From IMG/VR virus record IMGVR_UViG_3300027784_001663: DNA of 64,000 nt; one strand, given 5' to 3'. Both the position numbers and the translations under genes were made by a program. This DNA is from a virus. Positions 5,196-46,500 of this stretch are shown piece after piece (positions within the stretch are counted from its first letter, which is position 1; each line of letters starts with the position of its first letter). A model generated the notes under the pieces. It saw only the letters and a list, made by a program, of their open reading frames with translations. It was not told the DNA's origin and made no database searches.

Positions 5196-5239
5196 AATAA
5201 ATTCTCCTTTAAATAAAAATTGACATTAATTTATATTAA

Positions 5240-5267
5240 AATATACTCTTTTTTTATCACTTTTCAA
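5240..5267 (-). promoter_or_regulatory. Putative promoter TTGAAA-AGTGATAA..(16 nt spacer)-TATATT upstream of the SSB/recA cluster
   Basis: Plus-strand TTATCACTTTTCAA at 5254-5267, identical to 10857-10870; intergenic; sigma70-like spacing. Confidence 0.6.
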
Positions 5268-5279
5268 AAATTTTCTACT

Positions 5280-6392: not shown

Positions 6393-6412
6393 TCGAACCT
6401 ATTCTCCTAAAA

Positions 6413-6781
6413 TTAAAAATCGATTTCATCAAAATCTTCATTAAGACTATCTAGTGGATTGCTATTTTCCTGATTACCTTTATCTGATTTTTTATTATCT
6501 TTATTATTTATTTTTTTATCAGATTGTTTTTCACTATTCAAAGTATCCCCCCCAGATACTGTAGCTATTTTTTGTTGTAAATTCATCTCATCAAAAGCTT
6601 TTTGTGCTGAATTTATAAAATCAAGAATTAACCTTTTAGTTAAATCATTTGCTTTTTCAACATATTGACTAGAATTTTTATATTCTATCTCTTCCTCTAC
6701 TTCGACAAAAATATCTAAATTTTGAAAATTACCAAGATTAAATTTTCTATTAATTGACTTACGAATTTTTGATTTCGACAT
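6413..6781 (-). CDS. Small phage protein with RKFNLGNFQNLDI motif and acidic tail
   Basis: 122-aa ORF; the N-terminal (T/F)NLGN(F/Y) motif resembles small phage replication-region proteins; ends EDFDEIDF. Confidence 0.5.
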   Translation of the reverse strand: MSKSKIRKSINRKFNLGNFQNLDIFVEVEEEIEYKNSSQYVEKANDLTKRLILDFINSAQKAFDEMNLQQKIATVSGGDTLNSEKQSDKKINNKDNKKSDKGNQENSNPLDSLNEDFDEIDF

Positions 6782-6804
6782 AATAACACCCCTATTCTAT
6801 TTAA

Positions 6805-8736: not shown

Positions 8737-8741
8737 AATAT

Positions 8742-25974: not shown

Positions 25975-28900
25975 CTAAACACTCCTAATATTTACTATAT
26001 TACTTTCGGATGGTTCTCCGTCATCTATAGAATCATTTGGAACAACAATAGCCTTCCATTGTTCTCCAACTCTAGTAGCATCATGATCTAAAACAGAAAA
26101 ACTATTATGATTATCTCTAACATTATTAATATCTATCATATTTTCATACCCTTGTACAACATAAATATCTCCTAAATCATCCGCATTATCATATATTTTC
26201 TCCCATTCTTCTCCAGCTAATCTCCTCCACCATTGCACACTAGTTCTATTAGATTGAATACTATTTTCGCTATCATGTAATGCCATTATTTCAAAATCAA
26301 AGAAATCCCAAGATAAAATTAAATTTTGATTAGTATTTGGTTCTTCAGGACGTAATTCTATATTCCCAACTACTGGATAACTATTTTGGACTACATAAGA
26401 AGGAGTTGATATGCTTTCTCCTGAAATATTTTCTGATCTAGGAATAATAACAGCATATATTTCATTACCAATTTGCAAACCTAAATCAGAAGTAGTTCCC
26501 ACTCCATATTCACCAGGTGCTATTCTTTGATATAAAACCCCCTCTGAATTCTCTTGTCCATATCTTCCTCTTTTAAACATAAAATCATTTACATACCATA
26601 TAATTTCAGAATTATTAACATCAGTATCTGAATAAAAATTAAATCTAACTTCTGCAGTAACATCACTAGCTATCCTGTTTGTAACTTTTCCATCACTTTT
26701 TATACCCACTATGCGAGGCTGATACACTCTTGGTTTTGACTCCCTAACAACAAGTGTATTTGACATTCCTTCTTCACTATGTAATTCACCATCACTAACT
26801 CTTATAATAGCATGTATCCTGTCATTTAAATTTAAAATAGATTCTCCAGATAATCTAGCTTTGTCAATAACCGATTCATCGCTCCCTAAATCATCTTTTG
26901 AAAAAGTAAATACCCTTTTCCACAGAGGATCATTTTCATCATCTATATCATTCCATATCCGCAAATTATCAAGATAAGGAACATGAGTATTATTTATGAA
27001 CCATCTAATTATAGTTTTGCTTTTATCTTCTTCTATAAAATTAATATCAAAATAATCATATGATATAGATATTTTATCATAAACAGTTACATAACTAGGC
27101 TCTATTATAACATTACTAACCTCTGGAGGAACTCTTTCAATTGGAGGTAAAAGTTCTCTTCCAGTAGTATACATATATGATAAACCTTCAATTTCTAAAT
27201 CTTTTTTATCAGATTTGTTTAATAATTCTAATCCTATTTTATATGAATTTTCACTTAAAATACTTATTTTATAATCACCATCTATATAATCTTTAGACAA
27301 TCTATAATTAAAAACCACCAACCCCTCTCTTGAATAAATTCTATATAAATCACTAGGTATTACATTGTGATTTTTATCATAAACCATAACGCTAGAATCA
27401 GGAAACCACTTTCCGTAAGGAGCTCTTAATGTATAATCATCTATCTTCTCTAAAGGCTGATGTTCATATTTACCAGTATCATAAGCATAACGAATAGGAA
27501 CAAAGATTTTACCATTTTCTTCAATCCCAGGATAAGCTGGAGATGTATAATCAATCCAATTTACAGGATCCCCTGCTGACAATCCTATATTTATATCTCC
27601 AATATTTTCATCAATTTTATTATTTGAATTAACTGCTAGAACCATTTGAGAAGGCAATAAATCAACATCTTTATTATTTAAATATAAATATGCTTTATTA
27701 TTTTTATTATAATTAATCTCAAAGTATCTTAAATATGGACTATTATCAATAAACTCTCCATTATCATACATAGAATCAAATCCAGTTATAAACGTAATAA
27801 AAAATTTGATATACCTAACAAATAGACCATTATAAGAAGGAGAGGTATCATATGAATACTGCTCTAATAAATTAATATAATTGTATCCATCTTCACTTAC
27901 TGCTATTGCCCAATAAGCATTTCCTGTCTCAGGTATGTAGAACTCAGGTTTTATACTATTTAATCTAACAGATTCTCCCAAATCCACAATAAATTGATAT
28001 GTTCCATATCCTAAAACTCCAGTTGCTTCTGTATAAAAAATTTCAGACATTCTATCTGTATGCTTTGCATCAACTATAGTATAACTTTGCCCTCCTGTTA
28101 AATAAGAAATTTTATTCAATGTCCTTGTATCTGTTCGATTCGCAAGCACTGAAAGAGTTATAGGTTCAACCACAGACATATTACCTATTAAAACAGGGAC
28201 CTTTCTAAAACCATCAATATTGTTAATTTGCTCTATAGACTCATTTAAAGTTACCACAGAAGCATTTGAAGCATTATCTGTAAATAAATAAATAAGTTTT
28301 TTAATATCATCTATATCATTATCTGACATTGTTTCTGCTGATAAAGATAATGCATCTAGCATAGGCGATGCTCCAAAAGGAATCCTATTTTTTAAATTAT
28401 TAGCTACAGATAAAACATCATTATAAGTTCCATCATTTTTTTCTATAAGATTATCTACTACAGGCACCCAATCTTCATCATTATAAAATTCTACTATAAA
28501 ATTACTAGTTTGTCTAAAATGATCCCTTGAAATCAAATCAAAAATTCTATCATTTGCTTTGCTATCATTAATAATGCCTCTATCTACAGTTTGCCCAAAT
28601 AAATTATCATCTATAACAGTAACTTGAATAGAAACACTATAAGGTTGTCGCTCTTTCCCAGTTTCTATTTTAATAAAAACGTTATCCTCTTCTTCCCTTT
28701 CTGATATGATTTCATCTTCTCTGATTTCTCCTAAGCTAATAATATCTTCATCACTTAAATCTTTATATCTTTGGATCCTAACATGCACATCTTCTGTTTT
28801 TTCTAATAAATCTTCTGAACGTGGCAAAAGTGTAATAACCCCTATCCCATTTTTCAATGTGATTCTATCAGACGAAAATAATATAGGATAAGATGTTGGC

Positions 28901-29112
28901 CTATCTATGAATCTTGATGCTAACTCTTGTTGAAACTCCACACCTTCAAACCTATTTACATCTTCTTGAAGTTCAGAAAATTTTATAAAACCTCTTATCA
29001 TAATATCTATATCTCTTTTAATATAACGTCCATTATATTTCAATTTGACAGGAATAGATATAGACTGTCTTCCATTTAACTTACAACGAATTTTTTTATA
29101 TTTACTAGACAT
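25975..29112 (-). CDS. Large modular putative virion protein: Ig-like N-domain, C-half of a vWA domain, jelly-roll module, three A9/Ig-like repeats
   Basis: GASPMLDAL...KKLIYLFTDN...LNKISYLTGGQSY; repeats PPEVSNVIIEP..WFIN, PRVYQPRI..WYVN, PVVGNIELRP..QWW. Confidence 0.65.
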   Translation of the reverse strand: MSSKYKKIRCKLNGRQSISIPVKLKYNGRYIKRDIDIMIRGFIKFSELQEDVNRFEGVEFQQELASRFIDRPTSYPILFSSDRITLKNGIGVITLLPRSEDLLEKTEDVHVRIQRYKDLSDEDIISLGEIREDEIISEREEEDNVFIKIETGKERQPYSVSIQVTVIDDNLFGQTVDRGIINDSKANDRIFDLISRDHFRQTSNFIVEFYNDEDWVPVVDNLIEKNDGTYNDVLSVANNLKNRIPFGASPMLDALSLSAETMSDNDIDDIKKLIYLFTDNASNASVVTLNESIEQINNIDGFRKVPVLIGNMSVVEPITLSVLANRTDTRTLNKISYLTGGQSYTIVDAKHTDRMSEIFYTEATGVLGYGTYQFIVDLGESVRLNSIKPEFYIPETGNAYWAIAVSEDGYNYINLLEQYSYDTSPSYNGLFVRYIKFFITFITGFDSMYDNGEFIDNSPYLRYFEINYNKNNKAYLYLNNKDVDLLPSQMVLAVNSNNKIDENIGDINIGLSAGDPVNWIDYTSPAYPGIEENGKIFVPIRYAYDTGKYEHQPLEKIDDYTLRAPYGKWFPDSSVMVYDKNHNVIPSDLYRIYSREGLVVFNYRLSKDYIDGDYKISILSENSYKIGLELLNKSDKKDLEIEGLSYMYTTGRELLPPIERVPPEVSNVIIEPSYVTVYDKISISYDYFDINFIEEDKSKTIIRWFINNTHVPYLDNLRIWNDIDDENDPLWKRVFTFSKDDLGSDESVIDKARLSGESILNLNDRIHAIIRVSDGELHSEEGMSNTLVVRESKPRVYQPRIVGIKSDGKVTNRIASDVTAEVRFNFYSDTDVNNSEIIWYVNDFMFKRGRYGQENSEGVLYQRIAPGEYGVGTTSDLGLQIGNEIYAVIIPRSENISGESISTPSYVVQNSYPVVGNIELRPEEPNTNQNLILSWDFFDFEIMALHDSENSIQSNRTSVQWWRRLAGEEWEKIYDNADDLGDIYVVQGYENMIDINNVRDNHNSFSVLDHDATRVGEQWKAIVVPNDSIDDGEPSESNIVNIRSV

Positions 29113-29126
29113 TTAAATAACACCTA

Positions 29127-32100
29127 TTAATCAAATTCTATTAAAACTGTTCCTGGCAAAGATCCATCTGTATAACCACCTGCCACATATAAATAAGGAC
29201 GAGATTTTACGATACCCCAAGCATAATTAGAATACACTATCTCTCCATTTGCTCCTCTTACAATATCTCTAATAAATTGTGCCGAATTAAAATTAGAACC
29301 CCATATTAAATTCTCTTCATTCCCAGAATATAAAATAATGTTACCATCATTAAACCTATCTTCAACCTCGATATCTGATAATACTCTATTGTAAATCCCA
29401 AATTGATAATAATAACCTTTTAAACCACCTATAGACCATACATCATTATCTTCACCTTCAAAACCATGTAATAACATTTCTGATAACATATCTTCTTGAA
29501 TATTTAAACTAAAAACCTCTTTATCATTATTTATATATAAAGTAGATATTAAATCATTTTCTTCAATATCAAATGATAAAACGATATGATTTAAAATATC
29601 AGGTGTTATAGTTATTTCATCAAATGTATGTAAAATATCATAACTTTCCCCTTCTGCTATTTTTATTTCATATATAATTTTACCATCTTCTAATTCTATC
29701 TTTATATATTTTTCTTCATTTCCTTTATCTAAAATAATTCCCTCTTCTCCATCTTCTACTTGTATCCACATTTCAAATGTGCAAAATGGCTCTCTTAATC
29801 TATTAAAAGAAGTAGAAGAAATATTAATATAATTATTTTCTTCTAGTTCTAATCTTAATTCACTTGAACCTATGCCCGAAGATCCAATATGTCCATACCT
29901 AGCAATAGGTAAAGATACAAGTGAAGAATATTCATCCCAACTATTATCATAATTATATTTATCATATTCACTTAGATATAAAGACTCATTAATATCTACA
30001 CCTGTTATAACATTCGTTTTTTCTTTAATAGCCCCGCCAATAATATAATACTTATCAAAAATAGAGGGATTTTCTATACAAGGCTCTATCATCGCTGAAA
30101 ATAACTTAGGTTGAGGTAAATTATCAAACAAATCAAAAGAATAATCTAATGTTGTATAAGATGACATCTCAGACTCTAATTCAAATGAAATAACTTCAAA
30201 ATTTGGATGACGATTACTCGTTATAACATCTGACCAAGATCCATTAAATATAATAATTTTATTATTGTAGAGCAAAGATAACGGTGATAATCTTTGATAT
30301 AAAATTAGGTTATTATCATTAATTACGACTTCACTTTCATCCCATATATCATCTTCAACACAATATCGCATTATAAACTTATTATATTCATCTGGCTCAA
30401 CTATATCAGTCATTTTCCTTATTGATGTAATTCCAGACATTACGTAAATATATGTCTTATCATTGATGGCAACAATCTGGGATGTTCCATAAGCAACACC
30501 ATATGGCATTGAAGACAATTCTTCCCATTCGTTCAGACCTGAATCATACACTTCTATTTTATCAGATACATAAAAATCATCGTCTATATTAATTCCTATC
30601 CCACCAATAGTATAAATTTTATCATCTATAGTTGCAGACATTCCTCCGTAACGAGGTGTTAAAATCTCTTTTCTTTCTGACCATTTATTTAAAGAAATAT
30701 CAAACTCTTCGTTCTTATCACTAATAGATCTATTGTTTTTTAAATTATTTCTTAACCCACCTACCATATACATCTTTTGTTCACAAAAACCATAAAAAGC
30801 ATCTCCTCTAGCATACATTGAATCTACCATTCTATCCCACTTGTTTTCTTCTATATCATATCTATACAATAATTTAGAATATATATCAGGGACAAATTCA
30901 ACTTCAGGAGGAATAATTTCATCCTCATAAGGATCTACTATCTCTTCCTCTTCTATAGGTTTCGTTTCTATTTGATGACTAACAGTTCTTCTTCTTTCTG
31001 TATTTTCAGTCTCGTCATAAGTTGTAACAATTTCAACTTCTTCTATTATATGATTTTCATATATTCTATTCCCAAATAATATAGCTTTAGCAAAACTTTT
31101 ATTATTCTCATTATATGTATAAATAATATTAGATGTAGATTGGAATAAAGGAGACTCACTTAAATCCCCACCTGTAATTCTTTGGATATTAACATTTAAA
31201 GGTGTATTCTCAGGAACAGGTTTTCCTCTAAATAATACTTCTACTTTAATTTCAATATTAGATCTAAATGTTAAATCTTTTAGTTCTTCTACCTCAATAC
31301 CATCCACCATTATATATATAGTTCTAATAGATAAGGGCTCTCGAAGACACAAAGGACAAGGAGGAACACCATTTTCCATATCTCCTCCTCCAACTAAATT
31401 TATTGGTTCTCCATCTACAAATAACGTAGTGATCCCTGATAAAAAATAATTTCCCCCAGGTAAATCACAATCAGTAAGATCTAATGCGCTTAAATTAATA
31501 TCTTCTCTTTCACAATAATCATCAGACACACAAGACTTAGGCCCATCATCTCCCCATGTCTTATTAGCCCTAATATAAATAGTCGTAGTATCAGATATAT
31601 TTGCTGGATTCAATGTTACAAAAGCAGTCCCATATTCAATTTTAGAATCATCTTGCAAAATAAGCTCTGTCCTATTTGTCGATTCATTATATTGTTCTAT
31701 TATATTACCATGTGCAATTTCTATATCATTATCCCCTGCATCTATCTGTACTATTTGTCCAAATTCACTTAACATTAATAAATCAGAATTTTCTTCCTGT
31801 GCAGCATCTCTAAATCGTTTTGCTGATAAAAAATACCCTCCCTCATCAGGAGTCTTAGCAACAGCAGGATTTCTTGATATAAAAACTCTTGTATAATCTA
31901 TGCCGTCAGCCCATAATCTATTACTTTCTTTTTCTGGTCTATAATCATACGCATCAGAAGGTAAAGGTTCAAAACCACCATATGAACCATGTCTATAAAA
32001 ATATTCCATCTCCATAAGAAACCTAGCACCAAATTGATCATAGTCTCTACTATAAAATCTGAACTTTAAAGACTGTTTTGCTGTAGCAGTTAAACCGTCA

Positions 32101-35100
32101 TAAACAATTGTAGATGATAATACATGATATTCTGTTATTCTATCATCATCTCTACTTATAGGCCCTAAAAATACATTTCTTGCTGTTCCATTTATAGTAT
32201 ATGAAAAAACACCATTAGAGATAGGGACATCATCAAGAGAAAATAAATCTCTTCTTCTTACATCTAATTCTGTTGATGTTAATGGCCCAGTTCGTCTAAT
32301 TCTCCATATGGGTTCTATCTTCCATTGAACAATAGAATTATCTTCAGGATAAGTTCTTTTAGACTTATCATTTGGAAAGTCAGGATCTATAATATATGAT
32401 GTAGATTGCTGCTCAGCAACATCCCCCCCATCAGGAATAGGCGCATTAGCATTTATATCCATCTTTAAAATATTCTGGAAAACAATATATAAATTTCTAA
32501 ATGAAGACAACCCTGCATGAGAAGCAGTTACATATAATTGAATAGCATGAAATTTATTAGGAGCAAAAATAGGAATATCTACATATGATATTGGCTTTTG
32601 TATTTCTTCACCATTTTCTACAATAGTTTCAAAACCATCTAAAATATCCATTCTATCAGAAGGCAATGAAACCATTTCACTTTCTTGTATCCTTCTTCCT
32701 TCATAATAACATTCCCCTTCAACACCAGCACAAGTACATAATTCTTTTTCTGCATCCCATATCGCAGCTCTAATAGTTCCTGAAGGTACAGTTCCTCCCT
32801 TATAAAAAACTTTCACTCTTGCCATGAAAGGATTAGAGGCATTCATATATATACCATTAAAACTATGACTACTAGTTCTTAAATAATCCAATCCTGTTAC
32901 TTCATCTGCATCATAATAATAACATTTTTCATCAACCTTTAAACCGTCTCTATTTTCTAGTTGTATTTCCCACGGATTTTTAAAATTAACTACAATAGGT
33001 TTAGACAGATATTCAAAAACATTATCCCTACTTTCTTGTTGTTCTTCCACTCCTTCTATATCATCTATCAACTCATCTATAATTTCTATATATCTATCAA
33101 GAGGATTTGTCCCTACTGATTGTTCTGTTTCTTTCTGTTCAAATCTACTTTCTGAAGAAGGAATAAATGATTTGATTTGAACTTTAAAAGTTGCAGACTT
33201 TATTCTAGAAATAATAGAAGCATCCGAACTCATTCTAAGTGTGCATTTAATTAAACCACTACTTAAATGAGAAATTGAAAATGAATAAGCATTTGAATCT
33301 TCAAAATCATCTATATCATATCCAAAAACTTCTTCTGCATAATCATTATCTTCTCTTGAAATATCAGGTATAAGATGTATCTTAATTAAAGAATCACTAG
33401 GTAACGGTTGCCCATATTCATCAGTAATTGTCCCATAAAAAACAACAGTCTCATCAAAATATGCTTCGATATTATTTGGATGCGTTTTAGGTAAATCCCA
33501 ACCTATAGATACAGAATTTTCATCAAATATTTCATAATGTACATTTTGAACGTCTTGCAATGGAAAAAGACTTTCATCAGCATCAAGAACTGGAGTACAT
33601 TTCCCCATAATAGGGTCAGAAGGTCTTCCATATTTATCAATATTAACTATAGTATAAAATACCTCTATATCATTTTGAAGATTTTTATGTATAAAAAAAT
33701 TATCTTTACCAGAATAAATAATTTCTCCAGTAAAACCCCCATCATCTAGATAGACAGGATAATCGTTATTGCTATATAAAATCTGAACTTTCTCTACTCT
33801 ATCATCATTATCAAAAGTATTATTCCAACTTAAATAACTTCTTTGATTCCCAGGTATTGCTACTTCTTTATTTTGTATTAATTCAGGAGACTCTAATGGA
33901 TAATCCAATGATGGCCAATAATCATTTCCTCCACTAGGTATTTTAACCGAAATGACTGGTGAATCTGAATTATCACTATAATTTCCTTCCGAATTTATAG
34001 AATAAATCTTATAATAATAAGTATCATCATGAACAAAATTTACAACATCAGTTAAAAAATACTCTCCATAAGTAACTATATCTTTTTTATATATTTCTTC
34101 TCCATCTCCTTCCCATGACGGAGGAGAATTATCCTTTCTTATAACACATACGCTTCCATCTTCAAAATTATAATCTTGCGGGACAATATATCTCAAGGCT
34201 ATAATTCTATCCCCATTATCACCTTTTAATCCCCATATATGTTCTTCTTCTATTACCTCTTCCGTTTCAATATCTATTTTTTCCTTTGTTTGATAAACTA
34301 ATTGAGATTGTATATATTCTTCTGATCGACAAATGTTATGAACACTAACTTCTGTAATCCTTCCAATAAAATCTTCATCAGATAAATTAAATGTCATATC
34401 ATTAAATTCAGACAAGTTAATATCTGGGTTAGGAACACTCTCATTATATAAAACTTCTCCATTAACATAATATTTTAAATTCTCAGAAATAGTATCATAT
34501 GTTATAGCAATATGATACCAAGAAGAATTTGATAACATAGGAATAGAACTATCACTTATGAAAGCCGACTCATCACCAAAAGAAAAATTCAAATTATATC
34601 CATCTATAGACAACTTATAGTTATAATTTTCTTCATCATCCTTTAATGATATTAAATCATAGGAAGATTCTGAAGTTAATGAAGAAGGAGATAACCATAA
34701 TAAAATCGATAAACCTTTAGGATAATTTCCTAATTCATCTTTTCCAAAAGATAACTTCTTATCATTATCTTTAGTAAAAATAGTTTTTTTGTTAAGAATT
34801 ATTCCTGAATCTCCAGAAGGCACAAACTCTTCTGGTAACCACATCATTTCTTCACCTTCTTCGCTTTTAAAATTTAATTTAGATTTACTAAAATCATAAA
34901 GATTATTTCCAATGCCTTCATCCATATGCCATAAAGCCACAGTGTTTTTATCTCTTAATGCACCTGTCCCAATTAAAGGTTTTCCTTCATACATTTCTCC
35001 AGGAACTCTTCCTATACTTCTAAATGCAGAAACACCTCTAGGAATAATTCTTTCTCTAGGTGTAACTTTAATTTTTACACCATCACTAAAATTATAATCT

Positions 35101-35786
35101 TTATCATAAGTATATAATTTATAATAATAAGTTATATCGCTTTCTAAATCCTCATCAAAAATTTTAGAAACATATCCATCTATAATTACATCACCATCAA
35201 TAGGAGACGCAGGATATCTTTCTTGATTTCTTACACATCTAATCCCAGCATAATTAGCATCTCTATCTTTAAATAAAAGGGATCCTAAAGACATAGCATC
35301 ATCTATGTGGATATCAAGATCTTCTTCTATAGTCCCAAAGAATAAAACGTTGACAAATCTACTTCCATATTCAAAAAGATTATAATGGACATTCCCAGGA
35401 TAATGATTTTTAATATTTTCTACAATTTTTTCTATTACATTAAATCTAAGCCCTTGATTATCGTTCCAAGTCATACTCCCAGATTGGTCAACTATAATGC
35501 TAACAACTCTGTCATCCATCTCCATCTTAACAGCTTCTGAATCTGTATCATAATCTACCACCTTTACATTATCTAACACCTGTCCTATTTTATCAGAAAA
35601 AGTATTTATAATTAATTCTTCTGTTTTAGTAGGAGGTAAAATAGCTTTATTATTTGATACAAAATCATGATCACTATATATTTTCATCGCATAATTACTA
35701 TCATAATTTATATACCATTCATCTTTATCTAGATCGACATCTCCTATTAAAGCTTTATAATATATTAAATTTTTATCTTCTATCAT
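29127..35786 (-). CDS. 2219-aa modular putative virion/adhesion protein: vWA N-half, FN3-like repeats, two LamG domains, Ig-like modules, Kelch propeller
   Basis: IIVDQSGSM; TYYYKLYTY/TYYYKIYS FN3 motifs; VALWHMDEG...WYHIAITYD; Kelch MYMVGG/IYTIGG/IEVYD..NEWE; second LamG TFEMWI...NHIVLSFD. Confidence 0.7.
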   Translation of the reverse strand: MIEDKNLIYYKALIGDVDLDKDEWYINYDSNYAMKIYSDHDFVSNNKAILPPTKTEELIINTFSDKIGQVLDNVKVVDYDTDSEAVKMEMDDRVVSIIVDQSGSMTWNDNQGLRFNVIEKIVENIKNHYPGNVHYNLFEYGSRFVNVLFFGTIEEDLDIHIDDAMSLGSLLFKDRDANYAGIRCVRNQERYPASPIDGDVIIDGYVSKIFDEDLESDITYYYKLYTYDKDYNFSDGVKIKVTPRERIIPRGVSAFRSIGRVPGEMYEGKPLIGTGALRDKNTVALWHMDEGIGNNLYDFSKSKLNFKSEEGEEMMWLPEEFVPSGDSGIILNKKTIFTKDNDKKLSFGKDELGNYPKGLSILLWLSPSSLTSESSYDLISLKDDEENYNYKLSIDGYNLNFSFGDESAFISDSSIPMLSNSSWYHIAITYDTISENLKYYVNGEVLYNESVPNPDINLSEFNDMTFNLSDEDFIGRITEVSVHNICRSEEYIQSQLVYQTKEKIDIETEEVIEEEHIWGLKGDNGDRIIALRYIVPQDYNFEDGSVCVIRKDNSPPSWEGDGEEIYKKDIVTYGEYFLTDVVNFVHDDTYYYKIYSINSEGNYSDNSDSPVISVKIPSGGNDYWPSLDYPLESPELIQNKEVAIPGNQRSYLSWNNTFDNDDRVEKVQILYSNNDYPVYLDDGGFTGEIIYSGKDNFFIHKNLQNDIEVFYTIVNIDKYGRPSDPIMGKCTPVLDADESLFPLQDVQNVHYEIFDENSVSIGWDLPKTHPNNIEAYFDETVVFYGTITDEYGQPLPSDSLIKIHLIPDISREDNDYAEEVFGYDIDDFEDSNAYSFSISHLSSGLIKCTLRMSSDASIISRIKSATFKVQIKSFIPSSESRFEQKETEQSVGTNPLDRYIEIIDELIDDIEGVEEQQESRDNVFEYLSKPIVVNFKNPWEIQLENRDGLKVDEKCYYYDADEVTGLDYLRTSSHSFNGIYMNASNPFMARVKVFYKGGTVPSGTIRAAIWDAEKELCTCAGVEGECYYEGRRIQESEMVSLPSDRMDILDGFETIVENGEEIQKPISYVDIPIFAPNKFHAIQLYVTASHAGLSSFRNLYIVFQNILKMDINANAPIPDGGDVAEQQSTSYIIDPDFPNDKSKRTYPEDNSIVQWKIEPIWRIRRTGPLTSTELDVRRRDLFSLDDVPISNGVFSYTINGTARNVFLGPISRDDDRITEYHVLSSTIVYDGLTATAKQSLKFRFYSRDYDQFGARFLMEMEYFYRHGSYGGFEPLPSDAYDYRPEKESNRLWADGIDYTRVFISRNPAVAKTPDEGGYFLSAKRFRDAAQEENSDLLMLSEFGQIVQIDAGDNDIEIAHGNIIEQYNESTNRTELILQDDSKIEYGTAFVTLNPANISDTTTIYIRANKTWGDDGPKSCVSDDYCEREDINLSALDLTDCDLPGGNYFLSGITTLFVDGEPINLVGGGDMENGVPPCPLCLREPLSIRTIYIMVDGIEVEELKDLTFRSNIEIKVEVLFRGKPVPENTPLNVNIQRITGGDLSESPLFQSTSNIIYTYNENNKSFAKAILFGNRIYENHIIEEVEIVTTYDETENTERRRTVSHQIETKPIEEEEIVDPYEDEIIPPEVEFVPDIYSKLLYRYDIEENKWDRMVDSMYARGDAFYGFCEQKMYMVGGLRNNLKNNRSISDKNEEFDISLNKWSERKEILTPRYGGMSATIDDKIYTIGGIGINIDDDFYVSDKIEVYDSGLNEWEELSSMPYGVAYGTSQIVAINDKTYIYVMSGITSIRKMTDIVEPDEYNKFIMRYCVEDDIWDESEVVINDNNLILYQRLSPLSLLYNNKIIIFNGSWSDVITSNRHPNFEVISFELESEMSSYTTLDYSFDLFDNLPQPKLFSAMIEPCIENPSIFDKYYIIGGAIKEKTNVITGVDINESLYLSEYDKYNYDNSWDEYSSLVSLPIARYGHIGSSGIGSSELRLELEENNYINISSTSFNRLREPFCTFEMWIQVEDGEEGIILDKGNEEKYIKIELEDGKIIYEIKIAEGESYDILHTFDEITITPDILNHIVLSFDIEENDLISTLYINNDKEVFSLNIQEDMLSEMLLHGFEGEDNDVWSIGGLKGYYYQFGIYNRVLSDIEVEDRFNDGNIILYSGNEENLIWGSNFNSAQFIRDIVRGANGEIVYSNYAWGIVKSRPYLYVAGGYTDGSLPGTVLIEFD

Positions 35787-35799
35787 TTAAAAACCTTTG

Positions 35800-37797
35800 T
35801 TATACTTTCAATGCGGAAATTAAATTCCCATCTTTTGGAAATGATTCCCATAATAAAAAATTATTCCTATTTGATCCTGTAGATGACAAAACTATAAAAT
35901 AGCTATCAGAAGAAAAATATGTAATAGAAGGATTAAAATTTTCATTATCCTCTAATATAGAAATATCAAAATTGTACCAATCATCTATTTTTATATTTTC
36001 TAAAGTAGTTTTCCAATCATAAATTGGTAATAAACTATGTGGTTTATGAAAACCACCACTATCTATAGAATCATATATTCTTAAGTGTGTTGTCAGATAT
36101 GGAGATATAGAATATATTGGACCTTCACATCTTGGATTAGATATATTTTTATCTAAATAAAATTTATCTATAGCTACATTCTTATTTTTAATCTTAAATC
36201 CAATTATATGAGGTCTTTTATCAGGAATTATTATATTAGTAGATATCCATTTCCACACATCAATATCTATTGATTGATTTATACTTCTTACAACATGTCC
36301 ATCAATAAGAACATCAATATCAATATCAGATTCTTCTTTAGATAAAACTCTTAACCACAAATAATAATTACCATCACTAATAGCTCTAATAGGATACTCC
36401 AAAACACTATGATTTAAATCAGTACTATCATCAAATATAGAATCTTCAAAAGGAGAAGTTATCATATATCCATTTCCAGTATAAAATTCTAAATCATTAT
36501 TAATAATAATAGAATTATAAGATTTATCTATATTTGAAAAATTAGTTGAATCTATTACAGTTTTATTTATGGAATCAAGCACCCAGTAGTTATCTATATT
36601 CTCTCCTACTCTTTTTAAATATAATGAAACTTTTGAAGGGACAAACTCTCCATCTACTTTAAACTCTTGACCTTGTTTTATAGAAGGATATACATATTCA
36701 TAAACATTTACATAATATATATCATCTTCTTGATCTTTAGAACTTACAATAGATACACTACTGTCTATAGAAACATTTTCCCCTAATCTATCATTTGCAC
36801 CTCCACTATGATAACCTATTAAGGACCAATTATTATATTGATAATAAAAACTAATAATCCCTTTTTCTGAAGATGCAAAAGGAGCAGAAGCTACCATATA
36901 ATTACCATATATACTAACTGATGAACCAAACTTATCATTACTATAATCACTAACATCATATGATGGTCTTATCTTTTTAACCTCTATCCATTTATCATCT
37001 AGAGAAGAATATTTATATACATATACTGCTCCAACATTTTTTTTATCTTCAGAAATATCTGAATCTGGAGCCCCTATAAATAAATACTCATCATATATAC
37101 TAACAGATGCTCCAAAATGATCGCCATCATTTAAATCAGAAGGAGATATTCTTTGTTTTTCATTCCAATTATTTTCTTTTGTAAAAATATAAACAGCCCC
37201 TTTCCCATCAGTCTCTCCTCTTGCCCCTATTACGACAATATCTTTATAACAATCACTTGAACTTCCAAATAAATCACCATTTTCTTGTTGATGAGAAGAA
37301 GGAGATAAAGTATATCTTAAATCCTCATTATCCCAATTATCTATGTCTATATCTTTCTCAAAAACAAATGCAACCCCCCTATCACTATTATTATTAGGAG
37401 CAGTAGAAACAGCTAGTTCATAATTAAAAGATAAAGAAGATCCAAATGAAGATCCTTCTCCAAGCCCAACATCATTCTTACTTATTTCATTAATATAGGA
37501 ACCGCTCTCATTATCAGTCATATCTACTATTCTAATTTTTTCATTATTACTATCTCCTAATAAACAATACTTTTCACTTAAACTTATAAAATTAGGAGAA
37601 AAAATATTATTATCAAATGGACCCTTTGAACTATCTAAAAGCCAAGTCCCATATTCTGGATTTTTACAATACAAATATACATATTGTGTGTATTCTAAAT
37701 TGTCATCAGAAAATAATGAAGCAAGACAATAACCTTCGACATCTGAACTTCTATATACAGACCTTCCTATTTCTTTTTCTCTATCTTTAAATATCAT
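35800..37797 (-). CDS. FG-GAP beta-propeller protein with C-terminal jelly-roll/CBM-like domains
   Basis: Repeats FGSSLS, FGSSSD..VVIGA..GAVYIF, FGASVS..FIGAP..GAVYVY, FGSSVS..VASAP; then GNYYLWLRV...WKWI...AIDKFYL. Confidence 0.75.
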   Translation of the reverse strand: MIFKDREKEIGRSVYRSSDVEGYCLASLFSDDNLEYTQYVYLYCKNPEYGTWLLDSSKGPFDNNIFSPNFISLSEKYCLLGDSNNEKIRIVDMTDNESGSYINEISKNDVGLGEGSSFGSSLSFNYELAVSTAPNNNSDRGVAFVFEKDIDIDNWDNEDLRYTLSPSSHQQENGDLFGSSSDCYKDIVVIGARGETDGKGAVYIFTKENNWNEKQRISPSDLNDGDHFGASVSIYDEYLFIGAPDSDISEDKKNVGAVYVYKYSSLDDKWIEVKKIRPSYDVSDYSNDKFGSSVSIYGNYMVASAPFASSEKGIISFYYQYNNWSLIGYHSGGANDRLGENVSIDSSVSIVSSKDQEDDIYYVNVYEYVYPSIKQGQEFKVDGEFVPSKVSLYLKRVGENIDNYWVLDSINKTVIDSTNFSNIDKSYNSIIINNDLEFYTGNGYMITSPFEDSIFDDSTDLNHSVLEYPIRAISDGNYYLWLRVLSKEESDIDIDVLIDGHVVRSINQSIDIDVWKWISTNIIIPDKRPHIIGFKIKNKNVAIDKFYLDKNISNPRCEGPIYSISPYLTTHLRIYDSIDSGGFHKPHSLLPIYDWKTTLENIKIDDWYNFDISILEDNENFNPSITYFSSDSYFIVLSSTGSNRNNFLLWESFPKDGNLISALKV

Positions 37798-37807
37798 AAA
37801 AAATCCT

Positions 37808-40800
37808 TTATAATGGGAACCCAGTACTTAACTTGATAGGATATTGAAATCCATCTATTTGTAAAAAATCATGTCCAAATAACCAACCATTATTATCAAC
37901 AACTAAACAATTATGCACAGTCTGTAATCCTGAATATTCTCTATAAACAAATTTTCCATTCTCCATTATATAATAAGTCCCATCATCTAAACCTACAATC
38001 ATTTTATTATTAAAAGAATTAATATCATTAACAGATATAATATCAGAACTATTATTAGATATATCTACTAAATATACTCTCGGATTCTCACTATAAAATG
38101 ATTTAGAATCCGTATATAATCCTTGTGCAGTAGCTATATAAAAAACATTACCCATTCTAATAATATTATTTATATGTGGTAAATTGCTAACATCCAATCT
38201 ATTAAAAGTATACCCATTACCAGTCATCAATATTTCTGAATCTACTACAATAAATAATAAATTCGGATTTAACATTATCATAACTGGATATTTAGAATCT
38301 AATACTTTTTCCCAATTTGCTAATTCAGACGATTGATAATACACCCCATCTTCTGCACCACAAACCAGACTTCCATAAATAGAAGATAAATTATAAATCA
38401 CATTAGGCAAACCAGTTCTATCATATATTTTCCAATTTTTATCATTCCATATATTAATATTATTAATATTATCTTTAAAATAAATATTATTTTTTTCTAC
38501 AATATATAATCTATTTTGATGTCTATAAAAATTCTTAATATCAAGTGAACTTGATAAATTACTTAATAAAACCTTATTTATATTCCAAGTATCAATATCA
38601 ATAGAGAAAACTCCTCCCCTACCCCCTATTAACACTTTATTTATTTCATCTAAAAAAATACTTGATGTAACATATGGCAAAGTCATAGTAATATTATCAA
38701 GTGATAAATGTTTTTTGTAATTTATACTAGAATTTAAAGAATCAAACCAATTACTATAATCAGGGATAATAGTATCAGACTGATAACAGGAAGATATTAT
38801 ATTTTTTTGATTTGGATATTGTTTTTCTGTCCATATATTTAAGTTATTTATGTTTACTTGTTGAATTTGCGAAAGTGATGAAGGAAGCCCACTATTAACA
38901 TACTCCATCTTATCTTCTACTTCTCTATGAGTATATTCACCTGTATTTTTAATAATAACATCATAAATATTAATTTTCAACTTATCATATTTATCAAAAT
39001 TTTTATCAAAATATATTATTCCAGAAGCAATATTAACATTAGCGGGTAAATCCTCTTCTCTAAATCCTACTGGATCATTAGGATCAGGAATTCTTTTAAC
39101 TATAGAAGTTTCGATTCTAGGTAATTTAAAATCAATCTCGGTTCCATCTATTTGAATAATTCTATGTTCAGGATAAATATAAGAAAGCATTTTCTCAATA
39201 TCATAATATATCTCTGCTATAAATTTAATAAAATCATCACCAGTTGGAGCATCTTCCGCTATCAAAGTATCTATTTTATTTCTTACTTCTGTATAATAAT
39301 AAAAAGCATCATTATAATGAGATGTCAAATCATTAAATTCAGGGAACTCTAAATTTAAAAATTCTTCAATATCAACCTCTATTTCTAAAGGGGAATAACC
39401 ATATATATTATCATTTAACATAACTGCAAATTTAGTATCATATTTTACATCTGCCCATCCTCCATATCTTACTTGGAAAATATTATATTTATTTACAACA
39501 TCAACACTCTCATCTTCTATCACTACTTCATCAAATACAATATTTTGAGGAGAACTATCATTGTTATTATAATAAAATCCTGTTTTTTGAATTGAACCTG
39601 ATTTAAAAATAGTAGGGATTATAGTATCACCTTGATCAAATTGTAACCATATATCATCAGCGTCTATCCTAAAAATTTTAGATTCAGTTCCTGCAAATAA
39701 AAAATTATCTATAAGATTTAAAGATCTTATAATTAGTTTTTGCTCTTTTATATTAATAGATGACCATGTATCAACAAAATCTATATCTGAACTTTCATAA
39801 ATATTTCCTAATGATTTTTTTACACCTTGATCAGTAGATAAATAAATTACATCACTAAAAATAGACATATCTTCTATTCTACCAAACGAAAAATTTGCTA
39901 TCTTATGAAAAGATAATCCCACTTCACTCTGTCTAAACAAACTATTATCCGTCACTGCAAAAGTATATGAATTTTTTGAATAAAATTTTCTTATTTTAAC
40001 TGGTTCATCAATAAGATATGAAGCATATTCCCAACTTTTTCCCCTATTATAAGAAATTAATAATTCAGAATCAGTAGAAACTATAATACAACCATTTAAA
40101 ATAGATGGATTATCCGCAATACTAGGATTGATTTCTTCTTGAAATAAAATACCATAGGATTGACTACTTCTCAATCCAAATAAAGATAATTGTTCCCATG
40201 TATTCTCAAGATATGGTTTAGATTCGTTAAAACGAAAAACGCCTAAATCTGTAGTTATATATAAATTATTTTCACTATCTTCTATTATGTCTCTAATTAT
40301 ATTTACATATTCAAGCCCATTCATACTTCTCCATTGAGAATAATTCACATCTTCACTTAAATATATAGCCCTATTGGTAATAGCAAAAATTCTATCTTTT
40401 GAATCTTTAAATAATTTATAAACTGGAAATTCAAAACTTTGTTTATGTTCCCATGTGGTTCCATAATTTTTACTAAAAAGAATTCCATCGCTACTGGCAG
40501 CCAATAGCCATTCTGTTCTATGTAAATTAAGAATATCATAAAATGTAATACAATTACCAATTCTATTTCGGTCTTCATCATTATAAGAATTTGCAAGATA
40601 AAAAACATACCCATCATTAGTCCACATCTTTGCTCTAATAGGTTCGAGATCTTCATTAATACGACCATCATGGTTTATTTCAGGCAATTGAGAATAATCT
40701 ATCTTTCCTGAATTAATTTGAGTAGCACTTAATGATTCTATCTTATCTTCTAATAAATCCCCCTTAGTTTCTGACATCCCTATCATCTCTAATATTATAA

Positions 40801-43570: not shown

Positions 43571-43571
43571 A

Positions 43572-46500
43572 TTAATCCAAATTCAATTTTATAAATTGAT
43601 TATTTTCAAGTTCAAACATAATTCCAAAATTCTTTACTATAGGAACATTTGAATAATCACCACAATAAAAGGCATCAGTATCTTCGATTGCTCTTAAATC
43701 ATAACTTTTAGAAATAATTTCTTCTTCTGATTCACTTTCAATAACAGCTATGATAATTAAATAGTAAACCTTTCCATACTCAAAATTAACAATACTATCC
43801 CAGTTAGGATTGCATTCTATATCTACTGTCTCAAGAGCATCTATATCTGTTCCTTCTGCAGGGAAAGCATCCCCATCAACAGTCCATTGCTCTGGATTAT
43901 TCCCACTATATATAGTAGACAATTCATCAGTTCTTTCTGGATTTTTATATATAACAATTTTAAAATTATAATTTTGTGTAATATGATTCTCATTAGTAAA
44001 ATTAAAATTAATCTTATTTAAAAATAAAGTAGAACATCCTAATATAAACAATTCCCCTTCTTCTATCACTTCTATTATTTTTTCTTCCTCTTGATAATAA
44101 TATGATTCTATCTTTACCCAATAACTAGTATCACAAGATATACCAGAAAGCCCAGCAGGAGTAAATAAAACCCTATTAATTTCTCCTTCTTCTATTTCTA
44201 CCCCATTTTCAGATAATAATTGATTATCAATACTAAAACCATCTATACTATTCTCTGAAGATATCGAATGTATTTCATTCTCCATCTCTTCATCTGCATA
44301 AAAAATTATATTAAAAAAGTATTTTTGCGTATCATAAGTATTATTTTCAACATTAAAAGGAATAGTATTAAAATATAAATCTTCACCATATTGACTATAT
44401 TCATACCCCTCCCCAGTTAATTGAGATGTAGGAGTTATAAATTTTATCCCGACCCTAATATTTTCCCCTGTTTGAGTAATATTAAAAACTCTATTCTCAT
44501 CTATTATCTGATAATCAGACCAATCAATAGAATTAGTAGTATTAATTCCAAACACAATTTCAGCAGAAACAGGAATCACTTTTTCACTAGTTAGTATACC
44601 TTTTTTGATATTGCTAGGTAATATAAAATTAGTAGTAAAGAAATGAACTGCCTCGCTAGTAACTGCTTTTATACTTGCTCTATGAAATTCTGGAGTAATA
44701 CCTTTTTTATTACTTATCAATTCAACTTTTAATTGAACATATTGTCCCATAAGAAAAGATATATCAATATTATGAGATTTTTCATTATCAAATGGGCCTA
44801 TCCATTCTTTTCTTACGATATCTTCTTTTGAAGAAGAAGCCCTCATATATACATTTATAGATGTATCGGCATATCTAATTGCTTGCCACGATAATGATTC
44901 CCATTTAATTAAACTATTACCTCCATCAAATACCTCACTTATATAAACTCCTTTTTCTTCTTCAATTTTCTCTGCCGAATAAAAACTATTATTTCCCCCA
45001 AAAGTAAATAATACATTTCCATAACTATCTATTTCTAGAAGTCTATTCTCATTCACATAATCTTTTATTTTTGATATAGATATAGAATCAATAAATGGAT
45101 TATCATCAACAGTTTTTTCAGAATCAATAAATGTTTGATTTCCTGCCCTATCTATTAATGATAAATAAATATTTCTTTCCTGTTCAAGACTAGTAACTTC
45201 TGTTATCCTATTATCTGATATTATAAATATACTATTACTAGTTTTATCAAAAGAAATATCATTAATATCTTCTATATGAGTATATCTCCATATCCACATA
45301 TTATTTTTAGATAGATAATATAAAACTGGACCAACACAGGAATATAAAACAACTTCTCCTTCAGAATCAATAAAAGTTTTAATAGCACTAACTTTACCTG
45401 GCATAGTTTGAAAAGATATATTAAATGCATTTATATCTATAGGAGACCTTTTTATAATTCCCTTATTCATACCACCTATAAATAAAGAAGTTGATTCATT
45501 AACATAAGCCATTTTAGCAGATACTAAAGGTTCTTGCTCACTATGTATAATAAACGCAGCAGGAGCATCAACATCTATTTCATATACGAATCCTGATTGC
45601 CCATCTCCTCCTGTATCTTGCCCTACTACAGCAAATAAATTTTTTGTAATTGAAGAATCATCGTCTGGAATTTCTATATCTGGCATAGATGTCAATTCAT
45701 AAATATCATATCCTAATTCTCCTATAACAGAAGTAAAAGTTTCACCATCATATCTATAAATCTTACCTGATGTCCCATTTCCCTCTAAATTGTTTGTTCC
45801 AGAACCAATATATAATATATTATTTAATATACTAAAACAATGTGCTCTAGACTCCCCAATCTTTTGAGAATCATGATATTTAATTTCAAAATCCTCAGAT
45901 TCATCATATACATACTTATAAATATATATATCTGCTAAATTATTATCATACCCTACTGAAACAATCAAATTGTTATTATATTGAGCTATAAAATCTATAT
46001 AAGCATTTTCCGAATATTTAAATTTTTCTTCCCATATGTCTCCATTCTTTTTATATAAAATAGCTGGTTTACTAGAAGCAGCAAAAAATTCTTCAGTTGA
46101 ACTAAAATATACAATATTTGAACCATATCCTTCTTCTATATTCAATCTTCTAATATTCTCATCTAAAGATAAACCCATATCATGTATATATGAAGTTTTA
46201 TAAGGAACTGGATCTTTCGGATTTTCTCCATCAACAGTAAAATTAGGATAATTAGAAACTATCATACTTTCTATCCCAGATCCTTTATATCCATCAGTCG
46301 CATCATTAATATTCACCTTAACCTTTCCTCTATCTATTTGTTCTATGATATTAATACCTCTTGGTCTATCTTCTCTTTCTTCATAACCTTCATCTAATTC
46401 TGAATTTTTAAATCGAGGAGGAGTTGTATCTAAATGAACTTTATCGAATGGTAAATTTGTATTGACATCATTAACTTTGACTCTATTATAAGTACCTTCT

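What the first reader, a model, noticed from the sequence alone, without database searches (positions are those of the whole stretch)
28075..35515. vWA/MIDAS domain apparently split between two adjacent giant proteins
The 2219-aa protein has only the first strand/helix/strand with DQSGS (35475-35489) and then diverges into FN3/LamG. The next gene has no DxSxS but carries the rest: GASPMLDAL (28363), LIYLFTD (28276) and L..ISYLTGG (28090). The genes are out of frame, 14 nt apart, with an AGGTG RBS. A metal-dependent adhesion site may form only when the two proteins assemble, acting as a fold-complementation clasp.
Basis: partly seen in the sequence, partly recalled or inferred. Interest (0 to 1): 0.75.

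Follow-up and report, generated by a model that had tools for sequence, protein, structure and literature searches.

The report
vWA adhesion domain split across genes
Two neighbouring giant genes of a huge marine phage each encode part of one metal-binding vWA adhesion domain; related phages keep both parts in one protein, 1,400-2,900 residues apart, so here the domain most likely forms only when the two proteins join.

Summary

- **The two parts.** The 2219-aa protein carries only beta1-alpha1-beta2 of a vWA domain, with DQSGS (Pfam VWA_2 profile positions 3-53). The 1045-aa protein carries the rest. Its model matches solved vWA domains (Z up to 12.1) from about their residue 55 onward, with FGAS and TDN at the other two metal-site positions.
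- **Conservation.** All five metal-site positions are almost invariant: 138-139 of 140 first parts and 162-164 of 164 second parts.
- **Predicted assembly.** The complex scored ipSAE 0.80 against 0.00 for the best of 3 controls. It lays beta1 of one protein against beta4 of the other. This may partly reflect likeness to solved vWA folds.
- **Neither protein alone.** Neither model gives a complete vWA fold on its own.
- **New here.** 80 relatives hold both parts in one chain, always 1,442-2,853 residues apart and never adjacent. The domain is therefore a vWA with a giant nested insert, and this phage clade cut the gene inside the insert. Another lineage cut it at a different site.
- **Seen before in this scan.** The single-chain form was noted on other DNA (e1-5340051).
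- **Not shown.** Metal binding, the ligand, and presence in the virion are untested.

The parts
29127..35786 (-). Gene for the 2219-aa protein (P0001): N-terminal vWA first part, FN3-like sandwich, LamG, Kelch propeller, second LamG
   Evidence: ORF. Pfam: VWA_2 97-149 (below threshold), Laminin_G_3 345-493, Kelch 1636-1847. 75 relatives found with its first 500 residues.
35364..35516 (-). vWA first part: beta1 (93-100), alpha1 (113-128), beta2 (133-140) of P0001, residues about 91-141
   Evidence: AF2 secondary structure. VWA_2 profile 3-54 and VWA 3-54. This stretch holds most of the confident interface residues of the predicted complex (91-126, 128-129, 131, 133-145).
35475..35489 (-). DQSGS, the DxSxS metal-site (MIDAS) motif, residues 100-104
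   Evidence: Read from the sequence. D100 is kept in 139 of 140 first parts, S102 in 138, S104 in 138.
29113..29126 (-). 14-nt gap between the genes: second in-frame stop TAG, then AGGTG (29121-29125) 8 nt before the ATG of the next gene
   Evidence: Sequence. The split lies at a domain boundary, between the last Kelch blade and the 'LDGKQS' domain that fused relatives read straight through.
25975..29112 (-). Gene for the 1045-aa protein (P0002): N-terminal beta domain, vWA second part, then about 680 residues of beta-rich domains
   Evidence: ORF. No Pfam or PHROG hit. 33 full-length relatives. It aligns end to end with residues 2020-3045 of the fused P0040.
28018..28515 (-). vWA second part, residues about 200-365: beta3, alpha2, alpha3, beta4 (274-278), alpha4, beta5 (307-311), alpha5, beta6 (342-345), alpha6
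   Evidence: AF2 model. VIA-align Z 8.6-12.1 to 50 vWA structures, with model residues 97/98-246 aligned from target residue about 54-58. Foldseek's best matches are also mostly vWA domains.
28366..28377 (-). FGAS (246-249); S249 sits at the position of the MIDAS threonine
   Evidence: The profile alignment puts fGaS on FGAT of the GBS104 vWA domain. G247 is kept in 164 of 164 second parts; position 249 is S in 162 and T in 2.
28273..28281 (-). TDN (278-280) at the end of beta4; D279 sits at the position of the MIDAS aspartate
   Evidence: Aligned to TDG of GBS104. D279 is kept in 164 of 164; 35 members have the canonical TDG. Beta4 residues 272-277 are the closest contacts of P0001 beta1 in the predicted complex.

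Best explanation
P0001 and P0002 are the two halves of what is a single giant protein of about 2,200-5,000 residues in other huge phages. [quoted passage not shown] Beta1-alpha1-beta2, with DxSGS, lies near the N-terminus. The remainder (beta3 to alpha6, with the Ser and Asp metal ligands) follows only after a nested multi-domain insert of 1,442-2,853 residues: FN3-like, LamG, Kelch propeller, LamG and an Ig-like domain.

In the clade of this window the gene was cut inside the insert, at the boundary between the Kelch/LamG region and the next domain. The two products are translated separately, each with its own stop; the second has its own ribosome-binding site and ATG. The vWA fold must then be rebuilt in trans. 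The buried central strand beta1 of P0001 slots between its own beta2 and beta4 of P0002. The five MIDAS ligands come three from P0001 (D100, S102, S104) and two from P0002 (S249, D279).

The rebuilt domain would therefore do two things. It would hold the two giant chains together, and it would offer a metal site for an acidic ligand.

Shown by computation: the two complementary parts, their co-occurrence and conservation, the fused relatives, and a predicted interface with vWA topology. Inferred: actual assembly, metal binding, an adhesion or receptor-binding role, and a place in the virion.
For: 1. **Complementary coordinates.** Pfam VWA_2 and VWA match only profile positions 3-54 in P0001 and in 31 of 32 relatives. 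The P0002:120-400 model aligns to solved vWA domains only from their residue about 54-58 onward. Examples: 3ibs_A 54-209, Rpn10 58-192, LapA 58-193; Z 8.6-12.1; all 50 rows are vWA folds.

2. **Fused relatives.** P0040 (3047 aa, seen on 17 contigs) aligns with all of P0002 at 46% identity after a P0001-like part. 80 proteins hold both parts in one chain, 1,442-2,853 residues apart (median 1,904). None has them adjacent, and no protein under 2,000 aa holds both parts.

3. **Metal-site positions are nearly invariant on both parts.**
   - D100: 139 of 140.
   - S102: 138 of 140.
   - S104: 138 of 140.
   - S249: 162 of 164, plus 2 with T.
   - D279: 164 of 164.
   - The profile alignment puts fGaS and TDn on FGAT and TDG of GBS104.

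4. **Complex prediction with Mg riding along.**
   - ipSAE was 0.85, 0.80 and 0.75 (median 0.80); the best of 3 controls scored 0.00.
   - This mark was reached by 58 of 80 solved complexes and 2 of 110 mismatched pairs.
   - The runs share at least 70% of their contacts, and the partner's pLDDT is at least 54.
   - The tightest pairs are P0002 272-277 (beta4) with P0001 94-100 (beta1), which is the vWA strand order.
   - Partner pLDDT drops to 34, and chain 1 pLDDT to 45-49, when the true mate is replaced.

5. **Alone, neither folds completely.** P0001:1-260 models as beta1-alpha1-beta2, then a low-confidence stretch (141-163), then an FN3-like sandwich.

6. **The split is real and conserved.**
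   - 15 further split pairs share a contig length in the search tables. For one of them, L004, adjacency with a 1-nt overlap was read directly.
   - Synteny is kept: fn3 giant, FG-GAP protein, then the vWA giant.
   - A different fission site occurs in another lineage. In L005 the first part lies in a 1259-aa protein, and Kelch plus the second part lie in a 1486-aa protein, with an ATGA overlap.
Against: - Nothing here is experimental. No coordinates of the complex could be inspected, so the metal-site geometry is unverified.
- The complex tool warns that halves of a split fold can pass by likeness to solved structures. It also warns that its calibration did not cover user alignments or a riding ligand.
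- Model confidence is moderate: mean pLDDT 64 for P0002:120-400, and 55-64 for the partner in the complex.
- Sequence profiles of each part against the Protein Data Bank gave only sub-significant vWA matches (E 0.16-0.3). The best hit for the first part was an unrelated dUTPase (E 0.028).
- Mutual information between the parts over 89 pairs showed no enrichment at the predicted interface.
- Two strand-like segments are not confidently placed: P0001 147-153 (FVNVLFF) and P0002 205-209 (FIVEF).
- Position 249 is Ser where canonical MIDAS sites have Thr.
- No virion, tail or receptor evidence exists for these proteins.
Confidence: 0.7

Rival explanations
1. The two parts do rebuild a vWA fold, but between different copies (a domain swap). 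The first part of one P0001, or of one fused chain, plugs into the second part of a neighbouring chain. The split domain would then drive oligomers, rings or head-to-tail chains rather than a simple 1:1 pair or a closed loop.
For: The parts are 1,442-2,853 residues apart in single chains, so pairing within and between molecules is equally possible topologically. The fold tolerates being cut at two or more sites, which shows that a covalent link is not needed. Phage fibres and baseplate proteins are commonly oligomeric (general knowledge).
Against: No data on stoichiometry. The complex job tested one copy of each part only. Nothing in the sequences, such as trimerisation motifs, was found to favour swapping.
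Confidence: 0.15
2. The two vWA-like stretches are independent. The first part is a vestige that packs against other parts of P0001. The second part is a self-sufficient flavodoxin-like alpha/beta domain that uses its own upstream strand (FIVEF, 205-209) in place of beta1. The proteins need not touch through them.
For: The model of P0002 alone predicts a strand at 205-209 before the vWA-like part. Sequence-profile matches of each part to solved vWA chains are not significant. Covariation gave no support for contact.
Against: - All five metal-site positions stay nearly invariant on both parts over a family that has diverged to about 30% identity. That is hard to explain for a vestige.
- The parts always co-occur in one chain or in the same locus.
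- The predicted interface has vWA strand order and passes its controls by 0.80.
- Each part loses model confidence without the other.
- In P0093 and P0101 about 90 extra residues lie just before the second part, so nothing upstream is fixed in place to supply beta1 and alpha1.
Confidence: 0.12
3. The split is an artefact or a decaying gene: a sequencing or assembly frameshift, or a pseudogene of a single long gene.
For: One relative (L006) does show its N-side gene broken over several frames, so errors or decay occur in this family.
Against: - The same boundary, with stop, restart Met and conserved flanks, recurs in the 9 split pairs aligned across the junction. In all, 16 split pairs from separate contigs were collected.
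- The window has two in-frame stops (TAA TAG), an AGGTG and an ATG.
- Both products stay under selection at 40-50% identity over their full length.
- Split forms make one clade in the tree.
Confidence: 0.02

Closest known systems
Canonical vWA / integrin I domains with a MIDAS site (Pfam PF00092, PF13519; e.g. integrin alpha I domains, TFIIH p44, Rpn10, BatB 3ibs)
   Same: Same fold by structure search (Z up to 12.1). Same DxSxS motif, and the same positions for the Thr/Ser and Asp metal ligands. The predicted complex places beta1 next to beta4, as in these domains.
   Different: Those domains are contiguous stretches of about 180-200 residues. Here the first 50 or so residues and the remaining 150 or so lie in two polypeptides, or 1,442-2,853 residues apart in one chain. 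The metal-site threonine is a serine.
Pseudomonas aeruginosa PilY1 vWA domain with its 'insert domain' (Guo et al. 2024, PMC11525922)
   Same: It is a vWA/MIDAS domain of an adhesin with another domain looped out of the Rossmann fold. [quoted passage not shown]
   Different: The PilY1 insert is small, lies directly after beta1, and stays in one chain. Here the insert comes after beta2, is a chain of several domains 1,442-2,853 residues long, and in this phage the gene is cut inside it.
The fused form of this same phage protein family, noted earlier in this scan (e1-5340051: 2,394-aa protein of a 255-kb phage, halves about 1,450 residues apart)
   Same: Same architecture. The family recovered here also contains fused proteins of about 2,390 aa with gaps of 1,600-1,800 residues (P0184, P0221). 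That note already said that some relatives carry the halves in two genes.
   Different: This window is a two-gene case. It is tested here with a complex prediction, a tree of fused against split forms, and a second fission site.
Gram-positive pilus-tip adhesins with vWA domains carrying inserted arms (GBS104 3tvy, SpaC 6m48, RrgA)
   Same: These are adhesins whose vWA/MIDAS domain tolerates inserts. GBS104 gave the best sequence-profile match to the second part, over the FGAT...TDG stretch. SpaC is among the structural matches.
   Different: From my own knowledge, not tested here: their inserts are short arms of tens of residues within one chain. No two-chain form is known to me.

Membership tests
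vWA domain (Pfam clan vWA-like; PF00092 / PF13519) | Alpha/beta Rossmann-like fold with the central sheet in order beta3-beta2-beta1-beta4-beta5-beta6 | tested here: met
   By prediction only. The second part matches 50 of 50 solved vWA structures from target residue about 55 onward (Z 8.6-12.1, rmsd 2.5-4.4 A, 88-143 aligned). The first part matches Pfam VWA_2 and VWA positions 3-54. The complex model lays beta1 (P0001 94-100) on beta4 (P0002 272-277).
vWA domain (Pfam clan vWA-like; PF00092 / PF13519) | Pfam score above the gathering threshold | tested here: not met
   P0001 scores 18.4 bits as a whole protein and 25.6 bits as a fragment, against a cut-off of 27. P0002 has no hit. This is expected if each chain holds only part of the domain. 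Some relatives of the first part do better (best E 7.2e-08).
MIDAS-type vWA (integrin I-domain-like) | Five metal ligands: DxSxS after beta1, Thr in the alpha2-alpha3 loop, Asp after beta4 | tested here: met
   D100, S102 and S104 in P0001; S249 (Ser in place of Thr) and D279 in P0002. They are kept in 138-139 of 140 and 162-164 of 164 family members. Placement on GBS104 FGAT and TDG comes from the profile alignment.
MIDAS-type vWA (integrin I-domain-like) | Binds a divalent cation and an acidic ligand residue | not testable with these tools
   Mg was included in the complex job, but small molecules are not scored and no coordinates are returned.
vWA domain as normally defined | One contiguous stretch of one polypeptide | tested here: not met
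   The parts lie in two genes here. In 80 single-chain relatives they are 1,442-2,853 residues apart. No contiguous member was found among the 187 proteins with the second part collected here, out of 220 clusters matched in 1.84 billion representatives.
Phage tail fibre / receptor-binding protein | Homology to known tail or fibre proteins, or a place in a tail gene module | tested here: inconclusive
   PHROGs gave only unknown-function families on the Kelch part of P0001 and nothing for P0002. One neighbour has a weak 'major tail protein' hit on an fn3-like stretch (E 0.00026). No match in 50,697 GenBank phage records. The domain make-up (FN3, LamG, Kelch, FG-GAP neighbour) suits an adhesin but proves nothing.

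The most novel reading that the evidence does not exclude
The vWA/MIDAS domain of this phage family is an obligate two-segment fold that works as a non-covalent clasp. In single-chain members it closes a loop of about 2,000 residues. After gene fission it is the only link between two giant proteins. Its metal site exists only once the partners have met, so adhesion, or a metal-dependent assembly step, is gated by assembly. This would be by far the largest nested insertion known in a small domain, and the first natural two-chain MIDAS site. The fold has survived cutting at two or more different places.
Probability: 0.4. Interest if true: 0.8.

Novelty: new variant of a known kind. Interest (0 to 1): 0.66.

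Why it matters
vWA/MIDAS domains are among the best-studied adhesion modules (integrins, complement, pilus tips). As far as I know and could find, they are described as contiguous domains, with small inserts at most.

This family bears on three points:
- **How much a fold tolerates.** A fold of about 190 residues can apparently carry a multi-domain insert of 1,442-2,853 residues after its second strand.
- **Fission and trans-complementation.** The gene can then be cut inside the insert at different places, leaving a buried central strand and three of five metal ligands on another polypeptide. That makes it a natural case for studying folding by fragment complementation, how giant phage proteins evolve by fission and fusion, and whether a metal site can act as an assembly checkpoint.
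- **Annotation.** Neither gene reaches a Pfam threshold alone, so both are filed as 'hypothetical'.

A natural, self-assembling two-part vWA could also serve as a protein-ligation tag, if the assembly is confirmed.

Tried and rejected
- **Covariation between the parts.** Mutual information with APC correction over 89 paired sequences put 4 of the top 25 pairs inside the predicted interface, against about 4.6 expected by chance. The test has no power at this depth and is not used.
- **Sequence profiles of each part against the Protein Data Bank.** Only weak hits came back. The best hit for the first part was an unrelated dUTPase (E 0.028). The vWA hits were at E 0.16-1.1. I used them only for residue correspondence.
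- **Foldseek against the Protein Data Bank.** No match at E <= 0.001. The best rows are mostly vWA folds at E 0.002-0.02. VIA-align was clearer.
- **tblastn of P0002 against 50,697 GenBank phage records.** No match, so no cultured or named relative.
- **PHROGs for P0002 and six neighbours.** Nothing informative.
- **Three literature searches** for a split, discontinuous or nested vWA, or a vWA in phage fibres. No precedent for a two-chain or kilo-residue-interrupted vWA. The PilY1 small insert came from an earlier scan note and was checked in the paper.
- **Whole genome.** None is held for this window, so capsid, tail or host could not be sought.
- **Readthrough or frameshift joining the two genes.** Rejected. 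Two in-frame stops (TAA TAG) end P0001, and the T_TTA_AAT stretch lies after them.
- **P0002's own strand 158-170 (YSVSIQVTVIDD) as a degenerate beta1.** Rejected. Relatives P0093 and P0101 have about 90 extra residues between that strand and the vWA part, and the structural matches start only at residue 216.
- **Model coordinates.** They are not available to scripts, so sheet order and metal geometry could not be measured directly.


Full report
**Setting.** The window has 28% G+C and nearly all of its ORFs of 120 aa or more lie on the minus strand. Bases 1-24,000 hold phage-type replication genes: DnaB-like helicase, a DnaE-type polymerase in two genes, a UvsX-like recombinase and a methyltransferase. 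From 24,000 to 64,000 runs a row of very large genes of 665-2219 aa with fn3, FG-GAP, LamG and Kelch signatures. Relatives sit on metagenomic contigs of up to 549 kb, so this is a huge phage known only from metagenomes, several of them marine by source labels. No match exists in 50,697 GenBank phage records, and no whole genome is held for the window.

**The observation.** P0001 (29127-35786, minus strand, 2219 aa) carries VVSIIVDQSGSMTWND at residues 94-109. P0002 (25975-29112, minus strand, 1045 aa) carries FGASPMLDAL (246-255), KLIYLFTDN (272-280) and YLTGGQ (337-342) at the stated places. The junction reads TAA TAG GTG TTA TTT AA ATG. That is two in-frame stops, AGGTG 8 nt before the ATG, a 14-nt gap, and different frames.

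**Each protein holds one part of a vWA fold, and the parts are complementary.**
- Pfam VWA_2 matches P0001 97-149 to profile positions 3-53 of 107.
- On the isolated first part, VWA_2 (3-54) matches 31 of 32 family members (best E 7.2e-08), and VWA PF00092 (3-54 of 174) matches 16.
- P0002 has no Pfam or PHROG hit at all.
- An AlphaFold2 model of P0002:120-400, built on 33 sequences, has mean pLDDT 64, with 70-89 in most of the alpha/beta part.
- From residue about 216 to 365 that model shows helix-helix-strand-helix-strand-helix-strand-helix. In an exhaustive structural comparison, all 50 best rows are vWA domains (Z 8.6-12.1).
- In compact vWA entries the aligned range starts at about residue 54-58 of the target: BatB 3ibs_A 54-209, Rpn10 58-192, LapA 58-193, Mg-chelatase BchD 54-190.
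- So P0002 has the fold minus its first 55 or so residues, which is exactly the stretch that P0001 has.
- A model of P0001:1-260 (42 sequences, mean pLDDT 72) shows beta1 93-100, alpha1 113-128 and beta2 133-140. A low-confidence stretch (141-163) follows, then a confident beta-sandwich (181-245).

**The metal site is divided three to two and is conserved on both sides.** The profile alignment puts fGaS and TDn of the second part on FGAT and TDG of the GBS104 vWA domain, its MIDAS Thr and Asp (the residue roles are from general knowledge of vWA domains). Conservation across everything collected:
- D100: 139 of 140.
- S102: 138 of 140.
- G103: 139 of 140.
- S104: 138 of 140.
- G247: 164 of 164.
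- S249: 162 of 164, plus 2 with Thr.
- D279: 164 of 164.
- Position 280: Asn in 108 and the canonical Gly in 35.

A vestigial half-domain would not be expected to keep every metal ligand over a family that has diverged to about 30% identity.

**Fused relatives change the picture.**
- A search with the first 500 residues of P0001 found about 2,000-aa proteins like it, and also proteins of 2,784-3,665 aa.
- P0040 (3047 aa) aligns with the whole of P0002 at residues 2020-3045 (46% identity) after a P0001-like part. It occurs on 17 contigs from several samples, so the fusion is not an assembly error.
- A profile of the second part, run against 1.84 billion representatives, matched 220 clusters at E <= 0.001.
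- Among all proteins gathered, 187 carry the second part and 80 of these carry the first part in the same chain.
- The distance between the parts is always 1,442-2,853 residues (median 1,904). No member has the parts adjacent.
- No protein under 2,000 aa holds both parts; those with the second part lack the first.
- The basic design of the family is therefore a vWA domain interrupted after beta2 by a giant multi-domain insert.
- The same design was noted earlier in this scan in another genome (e1-5340051).

**Where and how often the gene was cut.**
- Aligned junctions show that fused proteins read straight from the last Kelch-type blade (..YVxGGYxSG..) into xRLDGKQS. Split forms end just after the blade and restart with Met a few residues before LDGKQS. 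The cut lies at a domain boundary inside the insert.
- A quick maximum-likelihood tree was built on the two vWA parts joined (32 pairs, 321 columns, midpoint root). Fused forms make up the deep, diverse grade.
- All 16 split forms fall in one group (SH-aLRT 87). The fused P0040 is nested within a starred subclade (99). At least two changes are needed, most simply one fission and one re-fusion. The root is not established, so this order is an inference.
- A second, different fission site exists. In L005 the first part lies in a 1259-aa protein, and the next gene (1486 aa, ATGA overlap) starts before the Kelch propeller and carries the second part at 711-898.
- L007 has a 1926-aa plus 1095-aa pair.
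- In L006 the first part lies upstream but is spread over two reading frames.
- In every locus examined, the first part is encoded upstream of the second on the same strand.

**Do the parts fit together?** One complex job was run with P0002:185-375 (32-row alignment), P0001:55-185 (32 rows, same genome order) and Mg.
- ipSAE was 0.85, 0.80 and 0.75 (median 0.80), against 0.00 for the best of 3 controls.
- This mark was reached by 58 of 80 solved complexes and 2 of 110 mismatched pairs in the tool's calibration. That calibration holds only roughly here, because my own alignments and a riding ligand were used.
- The runs share at least 70% of their contacts, and the partner's pLDDT is at least 54.
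- The lowest-error pairs are P0002 272-277 (KLIYLF, beta4) with P0001 94-100 (VVSIIVD, beta1).
- P0001 135-140 (beta2) lies against P0002 228-237 and 254-258 (helices). That is the vWA strand order, with beta1 in the middle.
- With the true mate replaced, the partner's pLDDT falls to 34 and chain 1's to 45-49. With the true mate they are 55-64 and 66-73.
- As the tool states, halves of a known fold may pass from likeness to solved vWA structures. The result shows that the parts are compatible with one vWA fold, not that they bind.

**Mechanism proposed.** The two proteins are made separately, and the tight spacing suggests coupled translation. They join by fragment complementation: the beta-alpha-beta unit of P0001 supplies the buried central strand, the first helix and three metal ligands to the five-sixths fold in P0002. 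The result ties the N-terminus of P0001 to the middle of P0002. It recreates the closed loop of the single-chain ancestors and forms a MIDAS site that could bind an acidic residue of a ligand. The surrounding domains (FN3-like, LamG, Kelch, Ig-like repeats) and the FG-GAP and fn3 neighbours, in conserved synteny, fit a surface or fibre adhesin. No homology to known tail proteins was found, so this role is inference. A domain-swapped, oligomer-forming version cannot be told apart with the present data.

**Comparison with what is known.**
- Pilus-tip adhesins carry short inserted arms (my own knowledge).
- The present family differs in the insertion site (after beta2), in scale (1,442-2,853 residues, several domains) and, in this window, in being cut into two genes with the metal ligands divided.
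- Three literature searches found no description of a two-chain or kilo-residue-interrupted vWA.
- I therefore class it as a new variant of a known kind.

**Limits.**
- All evidence is computational, and model confidence is moderate.
- No coordinates could be inspected.
- Covariation had no power.
- Two strand-like segments at the edges of the insert are unplaced: P0001 147-153 and P0002 205-209. They might pair as the stalk of the insert, which is speculation.
- Host, virion location and ligand are unknown.

Noticed in passing
L001:10001-19144 (P0040): A fused 3047-aa form sits inside the otherwise split clade (starred branch, 99) and occurs on 17 contigs. It looks like a re-fusion of the two genes after the fission.
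   Followed up: partly
L006:4745-10011: In this relative the N-side gene is broken into three overlapping calls (4745-6079, 6027-6380, 6328-10011). The first vWA part itself is spread over two frames, with profile positions 4-78 in one and 77-130 in the other. This is either assembly error or decay.
   Followed up: partly
P0155, P0159, P0173, P0181 (4,625-5,031 aa): In these very long relatives the first vWA part starts only at residue 2,028-2,165, so about 2,000 extra residues are fused in front. This may be a fusion with the upstream giant fn3 gene.
   Followed up: no
P0126 (2552 aa): This is the only protein over 2,000 aa that carries the second vWA part (1737-1923) without a detectable first part. 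It may be a truncated gene call or yet another fission site.
   Followed up: no
window 35800-49388; L001 and L004 upstream genes: The gene order is conserved between this window and relatives: giant fn3 protein (about 1,900 aa), then an FG-GAP protein (665-687 aa), then the vWA giant. The genes downstream differ (glycosyltransferases in L004, L006 and L007; restriction-modification-like genes in L001).
   Followed up: partly
L004:21461-21964; L006:20514-21014: Relatives encode a translation initiation factor IF3 homologue (IF3_N and IF3_C) a few kb downstream of the vWA genes.
   Followed up: no
window 29124-29129: P0001 ends with two in-frame stops, TAA TAG. The second overlaps the AGGTG ribosome-binding site of P0002.
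   Followed up: yes
window 25975-27900 (P0002 residues about 400-1045): The C-terminal 600 or so residues hold several repeats with a W-[FY]-[IV]-N ... W ... P-x-D signature (for example IRWFINN, IIWYVND, VQWWRRL, GEQWKAIVVPNDSIDDG). No Pfam model recognises them.
   Followed up: no
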